Virus genome (UHGV): UHGV-0126501
Length of the DNA stretch: 46,221 nt
Strand: one strand, 5' to 3'
Source of the DNA: a virus
The position numbers were made by a program, and so were the translations under genes. The notes below the pieces were generated by a model that had not been told where the DNA came from, made no database searches, and worked only from the letters and a program-made list of their open reading frames with translations. Shown here in pieces: positions 9,838-38,456 of this stretch (its first letter is position 1; each line of letters opens with the position of its first letter).

Positions 9838-10260
9838 GTGGCAAAAGTATTTACACAGGAAGAGCGAGAAAAAATTAAAGGGCAGATTGTTGATCTCGTA
9901 CGCCAGAGCGGGCGAGAGACGTTACGACAACTGGAAGCTAAAACTGGGGCAACAAGATATCTGATGAGCGTTCTGGCCAGAGAACTGGTAGCCAGTGGCG
10001 ATGTATACAACTCCGGCTACGGGTTATTCCCGTCTGAACAGGCCCGTAAGGACTGGCAAAACGCCCGCAAAAAACTCTCAAGGGCAAAGGTGAAGAAAAC
10101 GGCTGTGGTTGATCCGGACCTTATCAGGTCATTACCTGACGGAGAAATACGCCGCTACGACAGGCGTCAGAACATAATCTGTCGCGAGTGCCGGAAGAGT
10201 GAGGTTATGCAGCGAGTGCTGGCGTTCTATCGGGGTAATTTTCAGGAGGTGATGGCGTGA
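9838..10260 (+). CDS. Hypothetical protein
   Basis: GTG start with AGGAGG SD; 140 aa. Confidence 0.45.
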   Translation: MAKVFTQEEREKIKGQIVDLVRQSGRETLRQLEAKTGATRYLMSVLARELVASGDVYNSGYGLFPSEQARKDWQNARKKLSRAKVKKTAVVDPDLIRSLPDGEIRRYDRRQNIICRECRKSEVMQRVLAFYRGNFQEVMA

Positions 10261-27481: not shown

Positions 27482-29049
27482 ACGGGGAACTGGTGGATAT
27501 TCATGGGCAGCCTTTACGGCAAAGCATGGGATATTCTGGTGGTGGTTCCGGGTTCGGTGGGCAAATGGCAGAATGGCTGCCTGCACCGGAAAGTGCCGAC
27601 GTGGCGCTCTTACCTTCCATTCAGCTGGGTAACGCCCGTGCGGATGATCTGGTCCGTAACAACGGTATTGCCGCAAATGCTGTGGAAATTCATAAAGACC
27701 ATATCGTCGGCCACATGTTTCGCCTGAGCTACCGACCCAACTGGCGCTGGCTGGGGATGTCGGAAGCTGATTCGCATGCCTTTATTGAAGATGTGGAGGC
27801 GGCGTGGATGGAATATTGCGATCCTGTGTTTGGTTCGATGGATGTGGAGGGACGTCGTTCGTTTACCGAATTTATTCGTGAAGGGGTGGGCGTTCATACG
27901 TTTAACGGTGAAATTTTTGTCCAGCCCGTATGGGATACGGAATCCACGTCATTATTCAGAACAAAATTCAAGACCATCAGTCCGAAGCGCGTCAGCACGC
28001 CCGGTTATGGCATCGGCGATCGTTTTATGCGTGCCGGAGTGGAAATCAACCGTTACGGAAAGGCGATGGCTTATCATGTTCAGAACGATGACTGGCCTGG
28101 CTACGGTGTCAGTAACTGGACACGGATTGCGGCGACGCTGCCCTCCGGGCGGCCGGGAATGATCCATGTGTTTCAGCCACAGGAGGACGGACAGACGCGC
28201 GGGGCCAACCAGTTTTATTCCGTGATGGAGCGCCTCAAGATGCTCGACACACTGCAGGCCACGCAACTGCAGTCGGCGGTGGTGCGGGCGATGTATGCCG
28301 CGACGATTGAATCCACACTGGATTCGGAAAAAGCATTTGAATATATCGCCGGGGTGGGAAATGGCGGTAAAAATCCCCTGAACACCATCATGAAAGGCTA
28401 TGCGCGCTATTACGCCACCAATACGGTAAAGATGGGTGGGGTTCGTATTCCGCATCTTTATCCGGGGGATTCACTGAATCTGCAGACAGCACAGAATGCG
28501 GATAATGGTTTCTCTGAACTGGAAAAGGCGCTGTTACGTTACATTGCTGCCGGACTGGGCATGTCCTATGAGCAGCTTTCCCGTGATTATTCACAGGTCA
28601 GTTATTCCAGTGCCAGGGCATCCGCCAATGAGTCGTGGCGGTATTTTATGGGGAAACGAAAATTTGTGGCCAGCCGACTGGCGTCACAGATGTTTGCCTG
28701 CTGGCTGGAGGAAGCCCTTATTCGCGGTGTGATCCGCCCGCCGAAATCCCGTTTCTCATTCTGGGAGGCCCGTTCCGGGTGGTGTCGTGCCGAGTGGATT
28801 GGTGCCGGCCGCATGGCGATTGATGGCCTTAAGGAGGTGCAGGAGGCGGTGATGCGTATTGAAGGTGGCCTGAGTACATACGAGAAGGAGCTGGCCCTGA
28901 TGGGAGATGACTATCAGGAGATTTTCCGCCAGCAACTGCGTGAAAGCCAGGAGCGACAGGCTGCCGGTCTTCCCCGCCCCATCTGGATAAAGGATACGTT
29001 TCAGCAGCAGATCCGACAGACAACGGGAGGAAAAGGCGATGCGTCGTAA
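27478..29049 (+). CDS. B: Portal protein (lambda gpB-like)
   Basis: Colinear similarity to recalled lambda gpB (GGGxGFGGQMAEWLP..., ...RMAIDGLKEVQEAVM.IE.GLSTYEKE...). Confidence 0.95.
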   Translation: MNGELVDIHGQPLRQSMGYSGGGSGFGGQMAEWLPAPESADVALLPSIQLGNARADDLVRNNGIAANAVEIHKDHIVGHMFRLSYRPNWRWLGMSEADSHAFIEDVEAAWMEYCDPVFGSMDVEGRRSFTEFIREGVGVHTFNGEIFVQPVWDTESTSLFRTKFKTISPKRVSTPGYGIGDRFMRAGVEINRYGKAMAYHVQNDDWPGYGVSNWTRIAATLPSGRPGMIHVFQPQEDGQTRGANQFYSVMERLKMLDTLQATQLQSAVVRAMYAATIESTLDSEKAFEYIAGVGNGGKNPLNTIMKGYARYYATNTVKMGGVRIPHLYPGDSLNLQTAQNADNGFSELEKALLRYIAAGLGMSYEQLSRDYSQVSYSSARASANESWRYFMGKRKFVASRLASQMFACWLEEALIRGVIRPPKSRFSFWEARSGWCRAEWIGAGRMAIDGLKEVQEAVMRIEGGLSTYEKELALMGDDYQEIFRQQLRESQERQAAGLPRPIWIKDTFQQQIRQTTGGKGDAS

Positions 29050-33930: not shown

Positions 33931-34671
33931 ATGACGACACCGAATCCACTTGAAAAAATGAAAGGGGCGGGGACGACGTTCTGGATGTATACCGGCAAGG
34001 GCGACGCATTTGCGAATCCTTTGTCAGATACGGACTGGCTGCGCCTCGCGATGGTGAAGGATCTGCAGCCGGGGGAAATGACTGCAGATGCGGAAGATGA
34101 CGATTATCTCGATGATGAAAATGCTGACTGGAAAACGACAACTCAGGGGCAAAAATCTGTTGGTGATACATCCGCGACGCTGGCCTGGCGTCCGGGTGAC
34201 AGCGGACAGAAAAAACTGATTCAGTTGTTTGATTCCGGTGAAGTTCGTGCATTCCGCATTAAATACCCTAACGGTACCGTTGATGTGTTCCGCGGCTGGC
34301 TGAGTTCGCTGGGTAAAACCATTACGTCAAAAGATGTGATGACCCGTACGGTTAAAATCAGCGGTGTGGGGCGTCCGTATCTGGCTGAGGAGGGGACTGA
34401 AATTGTGGGGGTGACCGGGCTGACAGTAATGCCGGTTTCCGCCAGTGTCAGAGTGGGGGCAACGACGACGCTGACATTCAGCACAGTACCGGAAGATGCA
34501 TCTGATAAAACGGTGAGTGTGGCGTCATCATCTCCTGATATCGCCACGGTTACGCTGAGTGGCATGGTGGCCACGGTGAAAGGTGTGAAAGCGGGCAGCA
34601 CCTCGATTGTGGGGATGACTGCGGGTGGTGCGCAGGTTGCTGTGGCCGGTATTACCGTTAATGGTGATTAA
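33931..34671 (+). CDS. V: Major tail protein V with C-terminal Ig-like (Big_2) domain
   Basis: Start ATG 33931 (AAGGGGTGGGAA SD); ...KGAGTT.W.Y.G.GD..ANPLSD.DW.RLA.VKDL.PGE.TA... matches recalled lambda gpV. Confidence 0.95.
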   Translation: MTTPNPLEKMKGAGTTFWMYTGKGDAFANPLSDTDWLRLAMVKDLQPGEMTADAEDDDYLDDENADWKTTTQGQKSVGDTSATLAWRPGDSGQKKLIQLFDSGEVRAFRIKYPNGTVDVFRGWLSSLGKTITSKDVMTRTVKISGVGRPYLAEEGTEIVGVTGLTVMPVSASVRVGATTTLTFSTVPEDASDKTVSVASSSPDIATVTLSGMVATVKGVKAGSTSIVGMTAGGAQVAVAGITVNGD

Positions 34672-34687: not shown

Positions 34688-34714
34688 TTACCCCGGTATG
34701 CCGGGGTTTTTTGT
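34688..34714 (+). terminator. Rho-independent terminator after V
   Basis: CCCCGG-TATG-CCGGGG + T6. Confidence 0.7.
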
Positions 34715-34727
34715 TTACGGAGGGGAC

Positions 34728-35117
34728 ATGTTTCTGAAACAGGACACATTTAACTACGGTAATCAGTCTGTGGTACTGACGGAATTATCCGGACTTCAGC
34801 GGGTGGAGTATCTGGCGTTTGTTCAGAAACGGACAGCTGAGTTTGACGCCCTGGATGATGCCATGCCGGTGGCGGATCGTCAGATTGAATTTCTGCGTAT
34901 GGGGATGGATATCAATGCCTGGCTGGTTTCCCGGTCAATGTGGAATACGGACCCGTCACAGGATGTGGATGCGCTGAATGAGGATGTAAAAAACACCTGG
35001 TCTTATGACGCGCTTGGCGACGGGGGCAGTCTGGTTTTATCCCTGAGTGGTATGCCGGTCTCCACCGGTGATGTTCAGAACGGTGAACAGGTTCCCCTGA
35101 CACCGGAAAAGTCCTGA
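34728..35117 (+). CDS. G: Tail assembly chaperone G
   Basis: MFLKQDTF...VVLTELSGLQRVEYLAF... resembles recalled lambda gpG; immediately precedes a -1-frame ORF (T). Confidence 0.85.
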   Translation: MFLKQDTFNYGNQSVVLTELSGLQRVEYLAFVQKRTAEFDALDDAMPVADRQIEFLRMGMDINAWLVSRSMWNTDPSQDVDALNEDVKNTWSYDALGDGGSLVLSLSGMPVSTGDVQNGEQVPLTPEKS

Positions 35118-35440
35118 CGCGGGAGATGCAGTTTGTGATGCAGCTTGCCCGTGAGTTCCGGCGGGCAGACTGGCGGCGGATGTTATCAGAAATGTCAGCG
35201 TCAGAACTGGGCGAATGGGGGGATTTCTTCCGGAAGCAGAGTTTCGGGGATATCTGGCTGGATGCACAGATTTCCACACTGAAGTCGCTGATGGTTCAGA
35301 TGGTGTCCGGTGAACGTATTCCGGCGGATGATTTCAGTCTGGTTACGGATGACAGGGTGATCCCTGAACGCACGGATGAAGAGCTGATGCATCTGGGGGA
35401 AGGTATATCGGGAGGAATGAGATTTGGACCAGATTGCTGA
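35087..35440 (+). CDS. T: T portion of the tail assembly chaperone G-T fusion (expressed by programmed -1 frameshift)
   Basis: -1 frame open from 35087 and overlapping the G 3' end; candidate slip region CCGGAAAAG (35103-35111); conserved G/GT arrangement before the tape measure gene. Confidence 0.6.
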   Translation, partial: TGSPDTGKVLTREMQFVMQLAREFRRADWRRMLSEMSASELGEWGDFFRKQSFGDIWLDAQISTLKSLMVQMVSGERIPADDFSLVTDDRVIPERTDEELMHLGEGISGGMRFGPDC

Positions 35441-38400
35441 CCTTGTCATTGATTTAAGCATTGATACCGCCGATTTTAAAGAGCAGCTTCCGCGTGTAAA
35501 AAATCTGCTGAATGGTACAGCAAGGGAGGCGGAGCGGGCCGAAGCCCGTATGAAACGGTTTGAGGAAAGTCAGAAACAGGCTGCCAGCGCGACGGTGATA
35601 CAGACTCAGGCCGTGGTGAAGCATGCGCAGGGGCATGTTTCGCTGGCGGAAGATGTGGAAAGGGCGCGCCTGCGGATGGAGGCCCTGAGTCGTCAGATGC
35701 GGGAGGAGCAGGTTCAGGCGGTTGCGCTGGCTGCGGCGCAGGATAAGATGGCAGCCGCATTTTATCGTCAGATCGACAGCGTAAAACAGGCCAGTGCGGG
35801 GCTGCAGGAGTTACAGCGTATTCAGCAGCAGATCCGACAGGCCAGAAACAGTGGCGGGATTGCTCAGCAGGATTATCTGGCCCTGATTTCTGAGGTGACA
35901 GCGAAAACCCGCGTTCTGACACAGGCAGAGGAAACGGCCACCCGCCAGAAAACCGCATTTATTCGTCAGCTGAAAGAACAGACAAGTCGCCAGAAAATGA
36001 CCACGACGGAACTGCTTCGGGCAAAGGCGGCACAACTTGGGTGCAGCAGTGCCGCGGAGGTGTACATCCGTAAAATGGAGAAAGCCGGAAACACCACACA
36101 TTCGCTGGGACTGAAAAGTGCGGCAGCCCGTCGGGAGCTGGGGGTCATGATTGGTGAACTGGCGCGTGGTAATTTCGGTGCGCTTCGTGGCTCCGGGATC
36201 ACCCTGGCTAACCGTGCCGGCTGGATTGATAAATTAATGACTCCGAAAGGCCTGGCGGTGGGGGGAGTTATCGGAGGGATCACTGCTGCGGTTATTGGTC
36301 TGGGTAAAGCCTGGATGGAGGGGCAGGAAGAAGGCGAAGCCTTTAACCGGCAGCTTGAGCTCACCGGACACTATGCCGGTGTGACAGCCGGGCAGTTGTG
36401 GGCGCTCAGTAAAAATCTTTCCGGTAATGGCATCACGCAACATGCCATGGCGGGGTCACTGGCGCAGGTAGTGGGGAGCGGTGCATTTCACGGTAACGAT
36501 ATTGGTATGGTGGCGAAAGCTGCCGCACAGATGGAACGCTCGGTAGGGCAGTCTGTCAGTGACACCATCAGTCAGTTTAAACGGCTGAAGGATGATTCGG
36601 TCAGTGCTGCGAAGGCGCTGGATGATGAACTGCATTTTCTGACAGCCACCCAGCTTGAACAGATCCGTGTGCTCGGAGAGCAGGGGCGCACCAGTGACGC
36701 CGCCCGGATAGCCATGTCTGCACTGGCAGAGGAAACCGGTAAACGTACGTCGGATATTGATAATAACCTCAATGCGCTGGGCAGTACGCTGCAAACCTTG
36801 TCTGACTGGTGGAAGCAGTTCTGGGATGCGGCCATGAACATTGGTCGGGAAGATTCCCTTGATGCGCAGATTGCGTCGCTGCAGGAAAAAATTCAGCGGG
36901 CGAAGAAATTTCCGTGGACTAAGGCGTCCACCACGGTGGAATACGATCAGCAACAACTGGATGCGCTGCAAGAGCGAAAGCGCCAGCAGGATTTGCAGGA
37001 TGCAAAAGAGCAGGCTGAGCGAAATTATCAGGAGCAGCAGAAACGCCGGAATGCTGAAAATGCCGCGCTGAACCGGATGAACGAAACGGAAGCAGCACGA
37101 CATCAGCGTGAAATTGCGCGTATTAATGCCATGCAGTACGCCGATCAGGCGGTCAGGGACGCAGCGATACAGCGTGAAAATGAACGTTACGAAAAAGCCA
37201 TTAAGAAAAAAACGCCTGTCACCCGTAATGATGAGGCCACCCGGTTATTACTGCAGTACAGCCAGCAACAGGCGCAGGTGGAGGGACAGATTGCCGCCGC
37301 CAGACAGTCAGCGGGCATGGCTACTGAAAGGATGACAGAAGCGCATAAACAGCTTCTGGCCCTTCAGCAGCGTATCAGCGATTTAGCCGGTAAAAAACTG
37401 ACAGCAGATGAAAAAAGTGTACTGGCTCACAAGGATGAGCTGATTCAGGCACTGACGCTGCTGGATGCAAAACAGCAGGAGCTGCAGAAGCAGACGGCGC
37501 TGAATGATTTGAAGAAAAAATCCATTCAGCTTGCCAGCCAGCTGGCGGAAGAGGAGCGGGCTCTGCGTCAGCAACATGACCTGGATATCGCCACGACAGG
37601 GATGGGGGATAAACAGCGTCAGCGATACCAGGCACAGTTCAGTCTGCAACAAAAATATCAGCAGCAGCGGGAACAGCTGGAGCGTGACAGTAAGCAGAAA
37701 GGAACATATGGCACAGATGAATACCGGAATGCTGAGCAGACGCTGACAGACAGTCTTAACCGGCAACTGAACGAAAACAGACGTTACTGGCAGGAACAGG
37801 AACTGATGCAGGCAGACTGGAAAAACGGTGCCATGCGGGCTTTTCAGAATTTCACAGAGAGTGCGGATAACGCGGCAGGTACGGCTGAGCAGATGTTTAC
37901 AGCGGCATTTAACAGCGCAGGTAATGCACTGGCGACGTTCTGTACCACCGGAAAACTGAACTTCAAATCTTTTACCGCCTCGCTCCTTTCTGATCTGGCA
38001 AAAATCATGTCGCAAATGGCCATGATGCAGGCGGTGAAGGGGATTGGTTCGGCGTTTGGCTGGGGGAGTGCAGCAGCTGCCAGCGTGACGCCAAATGCGG
38101 ATGGCGGTGTTTATCAGTCTGCTGATTTGAGTCGCTACAGTGGCACGGTGGTTAACCGTCCGACGTTTTTTGCTTTTGCAAAAGGCGCGGGTGTGATGGG
38201 AGAAGCGGGGCCTGAAGCCATTCTGCCACTGCGTCGTGGTGCTGATGGCAAGCTGGGAGTTGTGGCGGATATTGGTGGTTCAGGTATGGTGATGTTTGCC
38301 CCGCAGTACAACATCGAGATCAATAACGATGGTACGAACGGGCAGATAGGTCCGGCTGCCCTGAAGGTGGTTTATGACCTCGGGAAAAAAGCAGCAGCGG

Positions 38401-38456
38401 ACTTTATGCAACAGCAGTCCCGTGATGGTGGTCAGTTAAGCGGAGCGTATCGGTAA
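35424..38456 (+). CDS. H: Tail tape measure protein H
   Basis: 1010 aa; TTG start with GGGAGGA SD; C-terminal ...INNDGTNGQIGPAALK.VYD... and internal ...KS.LAHKDE... match recalled lambda gpH. Confidence 0.93.
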   Translation: MDQIADLVIDLSIDTADFKEQLPRVKNLLNGTAREAERAEARMKRFEESQKQAASATVIQTQAVVKHAQGHVSLAEDVERARLRMEALSRQMREEQVQAVALAAAQDKMAAAFYRQIDSVKQASAGLQELQRIQQQIRQARNSGGIAQQDYLALISEVTAKTRVLTQAEETATRQKTAFIRQLKEQTSRQKMTTTELLRAKAAQLGCSSAAEVYIRKMEKAGNTTHSLGLKSAAARRELGVMIGELARGNFGALRGSGITLANRAGWIDKLMTPKGLAVGGVIGGITAAVIGLGKAWMEGQEEGEAFNRQLELTGHYAGVTAGQLWALSKNLSGNGITQHAMAGSLAQVVGSGAFHGNDIGMVAKAAAQMERSVGQSVSDTISQFKRLKDDSVSAAKALDDELHFLTATQLEQIRVLGEQGRTSDAARIAMSALAEETGKRTSDIDNNLNALGSTLQTLSDWWKQFWDAAMNIGREDSLDAQIASLQEKIQRAKKFPWTKASTTVEYDQQQLDALQERKRQQDLQDAKEQAERNYQEQQKRRNAENAALNRMNETEAARHQREIARINAMQYADQAVRDAAIQRENERYEKAIKKKTPVTRNDEATRLLLQYSQQQAQVEGQIAAARQSAGMATERMTEAHKQLLALQQRISDLAGKKLTADEKSVLAHKDELIQALTLLDAKQQELQKQTALNDLKKKSIQLASQLAEEERALRQQHDLDIATTGMGDKQRQRYQAQFSLQQKYQQQREQLERDSKQKGTYGTDEYRNAEQTLTDSLNRQLNENRRYWQEQELMQADWKNGAMRAFQNFTESADNAAGTAEQMFTAAFNSAGNALATFCTTGKLNFKSFTASLLSDLAKIMSQMAMMQAVKGIGSAFGWGSAAAASVTPNADGGVYQSADLSRYSGTVVNRPTFFAFAKGAGVMGEAGPEAILPLRRGADGKLGVVADIGGSGMVMFAPQYNIEINNDGTNGQIGPAALKVVYDLGKKAAADFMQQQSRDGGQLSGAYR

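What the first reader, a model, noticed from the sequence alone, without database searches (positions are those of the whole stretch)
35087..35126. G-T programmed frameshift region lacks a canonical X XXY YYZ heptamer
Seen: the -1 frame (T) is open from 35087 and overlaps the last 10 codons of G, but no canonical slippery heptamer is present; the best candidate is CCG-GAA-AAG slipping to GGA-AAA. Established: lambda uses G-GGA-AAG at this position. A non-canonical slip site would be unusual in this conserved expression mechanism.
Basis: partly seen in the sequence, partly recalled or inferred. Interest (0 to 1): 0.4.

Follow-up and report, generated by a model that had tools for sequence, protein, structure and literature searches.

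The report
Known G-GAA-AAG tail chaperone frameshift site
The tail-chaperone genes G and T of this E. coli lambda-like prophage overlap at the sequence G-GAA-AAG, which breaks the textbook slippery-site rule but is the most common, already annotated frameshift site in this phage gene family, so the finding is ordinary.

Summary
G (34728-35117) is followed by T in the -1 frame. That frame opens at 35087, after a TGA at 35084-86. No X_XXY_YYZ heptamer lies in the 31-nt overlap in any phase. The only shift-prone element is G_GAA_AAG (35105-35111), at the position homologous to lambda's G_GGA_AAG and one G-to-A change away from it.

The reading "unusual" is not supported. Among 89 distinct G/T junctions from Enterobacterales phages and prophages, 75 carry GGAAAAG and only 5 carry lambda's GGGAAAG. 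All 89 keep an in-phase A_AAR. GenBank already marks GGAAAAG as the -1 slippery sequence in phage N15 and, with a joined CDS, in phage LLS.

In Proteus and Providencia relatives the -1 overlap shrinks to 16 nt (TCA TTG GAA AAG TAA), leaving no other site. Heptamer base 1 stays G while the codon holding it changes among Pro, Ala, Val, Leu, Thr, Met and Lys. The ATG at 35126, which RefSeq uses as the T start, is present in only 19 of 77 relatives.

Most likely mechanism: low-level -1 slippage, with tRNA-Lys moving AAG to AAA and tRNA-Glu moving GAA to GGA through one G·U pair. This yields a 237-aa G-T fusion. No conserved stimulator was found. Verdict: already known, low interest.

The parts
34728..35117 (+). 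Gene G, the tail assembly chaperone (129 aa plus stop), read in the zero frame
   Evidence: Pfam PF06894 Phage_TAC_2, E = 3.6e-38. RefSeq names the 99.7% identical E. coli R1 locus 'phage tail assembly chaperone G'.
35087..35117 (+). G/T overlap: the part of G's 3' end where the -1 frame is open (31 nt, bounded upstream by TGA at 35084-86)
   Evidence: No X_XXY_YYZ heptamer in any phase.
35105..35111 (+). Slip site G_GAA_AAG. Zero frame: P-site GAA (Glu), A-site AAG (Lys). -1 frame: GGA, AAA.
   Evidence: It is the only in-phase Z_ZZN element in the overlap. It aligns with lambda's G_GGA_AAG. GGAAAAG occurs in 75 of 89 distinct related junctions. The same string is annotated as the slippery sequence in N15 and LLS.
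35111..35440 (+). T-frame coding sequence read after the slip: VLTREMQFVMQLAREF... to the stop at 35438-40. With G residues 1-128 it gives a predicted 237-aa G-T fusion.
   Evidence: Pfam PF06223 Phage_tail_T, E = 1.5e-13. Fusion built. It aligns end to end with the fused GT proteins of lambda, phi80, HK225 and Gifsy-1.
35126..35128 (+). ATG that RefSeq/PGAP uses as an independent T start. It is probably just an internal Met codon of G-T.
   Evidence: RefSeq annotates T as a separate CDS. The homologous codon is ATG in only 19 of 77 distinct relatives and CTG in 35, and 34 of 77 have no ATG in the first 20 T-frame codons. GGGAG abuts the ATG with no spacer.
35118..35153 (+). Predicted hairpin 6 nt downstream of the heptamer (CGCGGG...CCCGUG). 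It is specific to this sequence and probably fortuitous.
   Evidence: MFE -14.9 kcal/mol, z = -2.27, 3 of 200 shuffles as good. The stem picks up mismatches in close relatives (sequences). The family consensus shows no structure here.
33931..34671 (+). Major tail protein V homologue, upstream neighbour of G
   Evidence: PF16461 E = 7.3e-68 plus Big_2.
34690..34717 (+). Intrinsic-terminator-like hairpin and T tract between V and G
   Evidence: Relatives mEp460 and N15 carry an annotated terminator at the same place.
35424..38456 (+). Tape measure protein H homologue. Its TTG start overlaps the end of T.
   Evidence: PF06791, PF09718 and PF24622. ORF list.

Best explanation
This is the ordinary lambda-type G/G-T tail assembly chaperone cassette. 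Most ribosomes translate G and stop at the TGA at 35115-17. A small fraction slips back one nucleotide on G_GAA_AAG (35105-35111) and continues in the T frame. The product is a 237-aa G-T fusion, ...PLTPEK-VLTREMQFVMQLAREF.... tRNA-Lys (anticodon mnm5s2UUU) leaves AAG and re-pairs perfectly with AAA, the well-known A_AAG shift. tRNA-Glu (mnm5s2UUC) moves from GAA to GGA, keeping G:C at position 1 and A:U at position 3 and accepting a G·U pair in the middle. The site is lambda's G_GGA_AAG with one G changed to A. It is the commonest form in this gene family and is already annotated as such in phages N15 and LLS. Shown here: the anatomy, the homology, the conservation and the prior annotation. 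Inferred: that the slip involves both tRNAs rather than tRNA-Lys alone, and that the efficiency is a few per cent as in lambda.
For: 1) Cassette identity. G is PF06894, T is PF06223 in the -1 frame, and the pair sits between the major tail protein and the tape measure protein.

2) Homologous position. Fused GT proteins of the window, Gifsy-1, phi80, HK225 and lambda align through the junction (TPEK|VL against SAGK|VF). The junction Lys is invariant.

3) Conservation. 'CCGGAAAAGTCCTGA' is invariant in 80 related loci with 55-100% G identity that keep the -1 overlap, while the codons just upstream vary. Of 89 distinct junctions, 75 are GGAAAAG and all 89 keep an in-phase A_AAR. By cluster, 16 of 23 are GGAAAAG.

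4) Pinning of the site. In Proteus penneri L128 and Providencia L130 the -1 overlap is only 16 nt, TCA TTG/CTG GAA AAG TAA/TAG.

5) Constraint at a silent position. Heptamer base 1 is G in 22 of 23 cluster representatives, against 31% G at four-fold sites in the same genes. The codon holding it varies: CCG, GCG, GTG, CTG, TTG, ACG, ATG, AAG. That base is not translated in the T frame, so the constraint points to P-site re-pairing.

6) T is not an independent gene. The ATG is not conserved, yet the T-frame residues upstream of it (V/A-x-x-x-E) are.

7) Prior annotation. N15 misc_feature 10027..10033 'slippery sequence for -1 translational frameshift' is GGAAAAG. LLS has 'minus-one programmed translational frameshift site GGAAAAG' with a joined CDS. 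The Gifsy-1 and HK225 notes describe T as part of a frameshift product.

8) Literature. A_AAG is the most shift-prone tetramer in E. coli (PMC4066793). G_GA first halves and NNA_AAG motifs are recognised intermediates between hexamer and heptamer sites (PMC5009743). Single -1-frame mismatches, G·U especially, are tolerated in dnaX variants (PMC6787027).
Against: There is no direct protein evidence for this prophage or, within what I could read, for any GGAAAAG-type G/T site. All support is comparative or from annotation. In a reporter without stimulators, bare tetramers including A_AAG were barely above background (about 0.15% against 0.11%; PMC4066793), and I found no conserved stimulator. 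The alifold consensus over 27 diverse sequences is -0.87 kcal/mol with no covariation. The upstream anti-SD pairing in the window is -3.7 kcal/mol, against a background median of -3.2. The efficiency could therefore be lower than lambda's roughly 4%. Morganella relatives have A_GAA_AAG, and Pantoea, Ewingella and Kluyvera have G_GTA_AAG or G_GCA_AAA. P-site re-pairing is thus not strictly required, which leaves the single-tRNA model open. My sample was seeded from this window's protein and from a five-sequence alignment, so the 75 of 89 is not an unbiased census. Stx phages use A_AAA_AAG and a Vibrio phage uses C_CCA_AAA.
Confidence: 0.9

Rival explanations
1. T is made on its own from the ATG at 35126, as RefSeq annotates it, and no frameshift is needed.
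For: An ATG exists at 35126 and a GGGAG lies just before it. PGAP calls a separate 104-aa 'phage tail assembly protein T'.
Against: The homologous codon is ATG in only 19 of 77 distinct relatives and CTG in 35, and 34 of 77 have no ATG in the first 20 T-frame codons. Lambda, phi80, N15/HK225 and Gifsy-1 all lack it. T-frame residues upstream of the ATG are conserved, including the Glu at fusion residue 133, which is invariant in the five-protein alignment. The -1 frame always reopens just upstream of the heptamer. The GGGAG abuts the ATG with no spacer, which from general knowledge of E. coli initiation is too close. In lambda the functional species is the G-T fusion (PMC5009743).
Confidence: 0.05
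2. The -1 shift occurs at GGAAAAG but by tRNA-Lys alone. Either the A-site tRNA shifts on the A_AAG tetramer, or the P-site tRNA shifts while TCC or a stop codon waits in the A site. tRNA-Glu re-pairing plays no part. The product is the same; only the mechanism differs.
For: A_AAR is the only element kept in all 89 junctions. P-site codons that re-pair poorly (GTA, GCA, and GAA after an A) occur in some lineages. In 13 of 89 junctions a stop codon follows the heptamer directly, which would favour a P-site slip during slow termination. A_AAG single-tRNA shifts are documented for IS1222 and B. subtilis cdd (PMC5009743).
Against: Heptamer base 1 is G in 22 of 23 clusters despite repeated changes of the codon that carries it. 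A tetramer-only model does not explain that. Bare tetramers are very inefficient without stimulators, and no stimulator is conserved here.
Confidence: 0.35
3. The shift happens elsewhere in the 35087-35117 overlap, or the extra base register comes from RNA polymerase slippage on the A run.
For: The T frame is open from 35087, so in principle any of nine codons could host the shift.
Against: No other shift-prone motif exists in the overlap. The upstream overlap sequence is not conserved, and in some relatives it is closed down to 16 nt. From general knowledge, four A's are too few for productive transcriptional slippage, which needs runs of about seven or more.
Confidence: 0.02

Closest known systems
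Phage lambda G/G-T programmed -1 frameshift (slip site G_GGA_AAG)
   Same: The gene families are the same (PF06894 and PF06223). The order V-G-T-H is the same, T is in the -1 frame in both, and the slip position matches in the protein alignment. The A-site codon AAG shifts to AAA in both.
   Different: Heptamer base 3 is A, not G. The P-site tRNA is therefore tRNA-Glu (GAA to GGA, G·U in the middle position) rather than tRNA-Gly (GGA to GGG, G·U at the wobble position). G ends two codons after the site instead of six.
Phage N15 genes 14/15 and phage LLS genes 11/12 (annotated -1 slippery sequence GGAAAAG); also phi80, HK225, Gifsy-1, cdtI and mEp460
   Same: The heptamer G_GAA_AAG is identical, in the same phase and at the same position. 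The annotators of N15 and LLS mark it explicitly as the frameshift site.
   Different: Only the flanks differ: CCG rather than GCG or GTG before the site, and TCC TGA directly after it. N15, phi80 and LLS continue for five more codons. G-T identity to the phi80 and HK225 fusions is about 36%, and N15 is of the HK225 type.
Near-canonical -1 sites: A_AAG tetramers, NNA_AAG hexamers (IS1222 G_CGA_AAG, B. subtilis cdd A_CGA_AAG) and G_GA-type heptamers of RNA viruses
   Same: The shift is driven by tRNA-Lys on A_AAG. The P-site tRNA re-pairs only partly (PMC5009743).
   Different: Those examples are in IS elements, a cellular gene or eukaryotic viruses, and several depend on strong downstream structures. 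No conserved stimulator was detected here.
E. coli dnaX A_AAA_AAG and the Stx-phage G/T site A_AAA_AAG
   Same: The A-site event is the same, AAG to AAA. Stx phages use it at the homologous G/T position.
   Different: Those heptamers are fully canonical. dnaX adds an upstream SD-like element and a downstream stem-loop (PMC6787027).

Membership tests
Lambda-type G/G-T tail assembly chaperone frameshift cassette | The upstream ORF is a gpG-family chaperone | tested here: met
   PF06894, E = 3.6e-38, covering 1-119 of 129 aa.
Lambda-type G/G-T tail assembly chaperone frameshift cassette | The downstream ORF is a gpT-family domain in the -1 frame, overlapping the 3' end of G | tested here: met
   PF06223, E = 1.5e-13. 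The T frame is -1 relative to G and open from 35087.
Lambda-type G/G-T tail assembly chaperone frameshift cassette | The cassette lies between the major tail protein and the tape measure protein | tested here: met
   V homologue at 33931-34671 and H homologue at 35424-38456.
Lambda-type G/G-T tail assembly chaperone frameshift cassette | A shift-prone sequence sits at the conserved junction position | tested here: met
   G_GAA_AAG aligns with lambda's G_GGA_AAG. An in-phase A_AAR is present in all 89 junctions.
Lambda-type G/G-T tail assembly chaperone frameshift cassette | A G-T fusion protein is made at a low, fixed ratio to G | not testable with these tools
   This needs protein analysis. 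The only support here is inference from conservation and from lambda (PMC5009743; PMC3296357).
Canonical X_XXY_YYZ slippery heptamer | Bases 1-3 are identical and bases 4-6 are identical, in the zero-frame phase | tested here: not met
   G_GAA_AAG has G,G,A at positions 1-3. No canonical heptamer occurs in 35081-35117 in any phase.
Near-canonical G_GA / NNA_AAG -1 shift sites | An in-phase A_AAG that allows cognate re-pairing of tRNA-Lys | tested here: met
   GAA AAG in the G phase at 35106-35111.
Near-canonical G_GA / NNA_AAG -1 shift sites | The P-site codon can re-pair in the -1 frame with a single non-Watson-Crick pair | tested here: met
   GAA to GGA keeps positions 1 and 3 and puts G opposite U35, read from the sequence and the known tRNA-Glu anticodon. 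Base 1 is G in 22 of 23 clusters.
Near-canonical G_GA / NNA_AAG -1 shift sites | A stimulatory element: an upstream SD-like sequence or a downstream structure | tested here: inconclusive
   No conserved downstream structure. A hairpin specific to this window has z = -2.27. Upstream SD-like pairing shows only a weak family-level enrichment and none in the window. Lambda-type sites may not need one.

The most novel reading that the evidence does not exclude
The G_GAA_AAG form may not be a neutral variant of lambda's site. Both slipping tRNAs, Glu and Lys, carry mnm5s2U34, whereas to my knowledge lambda's P-site tRNA-Gly lacks the 2-thio group. The G:G-T ratio of these prophages could therefore be more tightly coupled to the host's tRNA thiolation and sulfur-relay state (TusA-E/MnmA). 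That pathway is already shown to tune lambda's G-T frameshifting (PMC3296357). Such coupling could explain why this form predominates among enterobacterial prophages.
Probability: 0.15. Interest if true: 0.4.

Novelty: already known. Interest (0 to 1): 0.12.

Why it matters
There is little new biology here. The site is the standard one for this family and was annotated in N15 and LLS. The practical point concerns annotation. RefSeq/PGAP calls T as a free-standing ATG-initiated gene at this locus. T is listed the same way, as a separate 'phage tail assembly protein T', in the E. coli matches shown, and homologues occur in about a third of complete E. coli genomes (1,843 of 5,426). Tools that look only for X_XXY_YYZ will miss the G-T fusion. 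The family-wide table of P-site variants (GAA, GGA, AAA, CCA, GTA, GCA before A_AAR) is a useful natural series for testing how much P-site re-pairing matters in bacterial -1 frameshifting.

Tried and rejected
1) Downstream stimulatory structure. Folding 35112-35211 gave unremarkable z-scores (-0.75, -1.19). A 40-nt hairpin at 35118-35153 reached z = -2.27. Its stem is mismatched in close relatives, and RNAalifold on 27 diverse sequences found no consensus structure (-0.87 kcal/mol, no compensatory pairs). Rejected as a conserved stimulator.

2) Upstream SD-like stimulator, as in dnaX. GAGG lies 10 nt upstream in the mEp460 clade. Anti-SD duplex energies are only slightly better than background across the family (mean -4.95 against -3.77 kcal/mol), the sequences are not independent, and the window itself scores -3.7. 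Not convincing.

3) Motif rarity. GGAAAAG occurs 8 times against 7.86 expected. Three other copies are in the G_GAA_AAG phase of long ORFs. Presence alone means nothing.

4) Literature searches for the exact heptamer returned only unrelated papers or primer sequences. Xu et al. 2004 and Licznar et al. 2003 are not held. The claim of prior knowledge therefore rests on GenBank annotations and reviews.

5) Independent T initiation and transcriptional slippage were considered and rejected; see the rival explanations.

Full report
What is there. The window is a lambda-like prophage of E. coli. The 771-nt G-T region is 99.7% identical to a prophage next to potABCD/pepT/phoPQ in E. coli R1, and homologues occur in 1,843 of 5,426 complete E. 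coli genomes. Around the finding the gene order is: major tail protein V (33931-34671), an intrinsic-terminator-like hairpin (34690-34707), G (34728-35117), T, and the tape measure protein H (35424-38456). G matches PF06894 (E = 3.6e-38). The -1 frame ORF matches PF06223, Phage_tail_T (E = 1.5e-13).

Checking the observation. G ends ACA CCG GAA AAG TCC TGA, at 35100-35117. The -1 frame has a TGA at 35084-86 and is open from 35087 to 35440. A programmatic scan found no X_XXY_YYZ heptamer in 35081-35117 in any phase. The only in-phase Z_ZZN element is the A_AAG within G_GAA_AAG at 35105-35111. GGAAAAG as a bare string is not rare, with 8 copies against 7.86 expected.

Homology to lambda's site. 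Lambda reads GCG GGA AAG TGT ... TGA. After the shift it reads GGG AAA GTG TTC GAC GGT GAG CTG. The window's -1 frame reads GGA AAA GTC CTG ACG CGG GAG ATG. Fused GT proteins from the window, Gifsy-1, phi80, HK225 and lambda align straight through the junction (TPEK|VL.. against SAGK|VF..), and the junction Lys is invariant. The window's heptamer is lambda's with base 3 changed from G to A.

How common it is. In 80 loci related to the window that keep the -1 overlap (55-100% G identity, including mEp460 and Gifsy-1), 'CCGGAAAAGTCCTGA' is invariant while the codons just upstream vary freely. A scan of one genome per bacterial species, seeded with the five-protein alignment, added diverse Enterobacterales: Citrobacter, Kluyvera, Enterobacter, Proteus, Providencia, Morganella, Pantoea, Edwardsiella, Sodalis and others.

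Over all 89 distinct junctions the heptamer at the homologous position is distributed as follows:
- GGAAAAG: 75
- GGGAAAG: 5
- AGAAAAG: 3
- GGTAAAG: 3
- GGCAAAA: 2
- GGGAAAA: 1

Every junction has an in-phase A_AAR. Clustered at 15% nucleotide divergence, 16 of 23 clusters are GGAAAAG. Stx-converting phages use A_AAA_AAG and Vibrio phage K245 uses C_CCA_AAA at the same position. In Proteus penneri and Providencia heimbachae prophages the -1 overlap is only 16 nt (TCA TTG/CTG GAA AAG TAA/TAG), which leaves no alternative site.

Already annotated. The N15 GenBank record has a misc_feature at 10027..10033, 'slippery sequence for -1 translational frameshift', whose sequence is GGAAAAG. The phage LLS record has 'minus-one programmed translational frameshift site GGAAAAG' and a joined CDS. 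The Gifsy-1 and HK225 notes describe T as part of a frameshift product. By contrast, RefSeq/PGAP annotates T at this locus as a separate CDS starting at the ATG.

Mechanism. The invariant element is A_AAR. In E. coli, A_AAG is the most shift-prone tetramer, because the single tRNA-Lys (mnm5s2UUU) pairs weakly with AAG and perfectly with AAA (PMC4066793; PMC5009743). For the P site, GAA to GGA keeps G:C36 and A:U34 and replaces A:U35 with G·U35. Lambda's GGA to GGG likewise introduces one G·U, but at the wobble position. The recoding review lists G_GA among the recognised intermediates between NNA_AAG hexamers and full heptamers. In dnaX variants, single -1-frame mismatches, A·U to G·U especially, carry modest penalties (PMC6787027). 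The PRFect authors list 'twofour' among non-canonical motifs in annotated phage chaperone frameshifts, and they note tRNA-Glu re-pairing on GGA through G:U.

A comparative argument that the P-site tRNA matters comes from heptamer base 1. It is a silent third-codon base in G and is not translated in T. It is G in 22 of 23 cluster representatives, against 31% G at four-fold sites in the same genes (nominal binomial P about 1e-10). The codon that carries it has changed among CCG, GCG, GTG, CTG, TTG, ACG, ATG and AAG. The clusters are related by descent, so that P value overstates the significance. Morganella (A_GAA_AAG), Pantoea (G_GTA_AAG), and Ewingella and Kluyvera (G_GCA_AAA) show that good P-site re-pairing is not obligatory. 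I rate two-tRNA slippage as more likely than tRNA-Lys-only slippage, but not by much. Both give the same protein.

Stimulators. None is conserved. RNAalifold on 27 diverse sequences from the heptamer to +73 gave -0.87 kcal/mol and no compensatory pairs. A hairpin at 35118-35153, 6 nt after the site, has z = -2.27 but is mismatched in close relatives. Upstream anti-SD pairing is only weakly enriched across the family, and in the window it is at background level. Bare tetramers were barely shifty in reporters, so efficiency here is uncertain. Lambda's own site gives about 4% (PMC3296357), or a 30:1 ratio of G to G-T (PMC5009743).

Rival: independent T initiation. The codon homologous to ATG 35126 is ATG in only 19 of 77 distinct relatives and CTG in 35. 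In 34 of 77 there is no ATG within the first 20 T-frame codons. Residues upstream of it (V/A-x-x-x-E) are conserved; in the five-protein alignment the Glu at fusion residue 133 is invariant. The GGGAG abuts the ATG with no spacer. This rival is unlikely as the main route.

Verdict. The site is non-canonical only in the textbook sense. It is the prevailing, previously annotated slip sequence of this gene family, so I score the novelty 'already known' and the interest low. The residual novel possibility concerns host tRNA thiolation. Both slipping tRNAs here carry s2U34, so the G:G-T ratio could be coupled more tightly to that host state than in lambda. This is untested.

Noticed in passing
window 34690-34717 (+): A strong intrinsic-terminator-like hairpin (ACCCCGG-TATG-CCGGGGT followed by a T run) sits between the major tail gene V and G. 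mEp460 and N15 have an annotated terminator at the same place. It could lower G/T/H expression relative to V.
   Followed up: partly
L003 20437-20751 (= window 35126-35440); E. coli genomes: RefSeq/PGAP annotates T as a separate ATG-initiated CDS (WP_001161001.1) with no ribosomal-slippage join. The matches listed from 1,843 E. coli genomes likewise show T as a separate 'phage tail assembly protein T'. This looks like a systematic annotation gap.
   Followed up: partly
L146-L152 and L154-L158 (genome contigs): Loci with the same match statistics as lambda (the full-length ones carry a G-T overlap identical to lambda's) sit on short contigs, several at about 1x coverage, in assemblies labelled Neobacillus, Oceanobacillus, Kitasatospora, Shewanella, Pseudomonas, Leeuwenhoekiella, Chromatium and others. 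This is almost certainly lambda DNA contamination or spike-in.
   Followed up: no
L101, L102, L104 (Morganella); L124, L126, L135 (Pantoea and an Enterobacterales MAG); L096, L099 (Ewingella, Kluyvera): These are natural variants of the P-site half of the heptamer: A_GAA_AAG, G_GTA_AAG and G_GCA_AAA. In the Morganella, Ewingella and Kluyvera forms a stop codon follows directly. P-site re-pairing would be poor in all of them, so they form a natural test set for one-tRNA against two-tRNA slippage.
   Followed up: partly
L005, L006, L022 (viral contigs): In these relatives my tblastn-based parsing placed the T match in the same frame as G, without the usual -1 overlap. In L005 and L022 the G frame also ends early. 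The cause could be indels, pseudogenes, assembly errors or a parsing artefact. Not resolved.
   Followed up: no
window 29029-29035 (+): Another GGAAAAG lies where two long open frames overlap, at the portal/S49 protease junction by coordinate mapping to L003. It is in the GGA_AAA_G phase of the portal frame, so it is not a -1 site for that gene. Probably coincidence.
   Followed up: partly
window 35410-35426 (+): The tape measure gene appears to start at TTG 35424, inside the last codons of T. GGGAGG at 35410-35415 serves as its likely Shine-Dalgarno sequence, so H initiation is embedded in T coding sequence.
   Followed up: no
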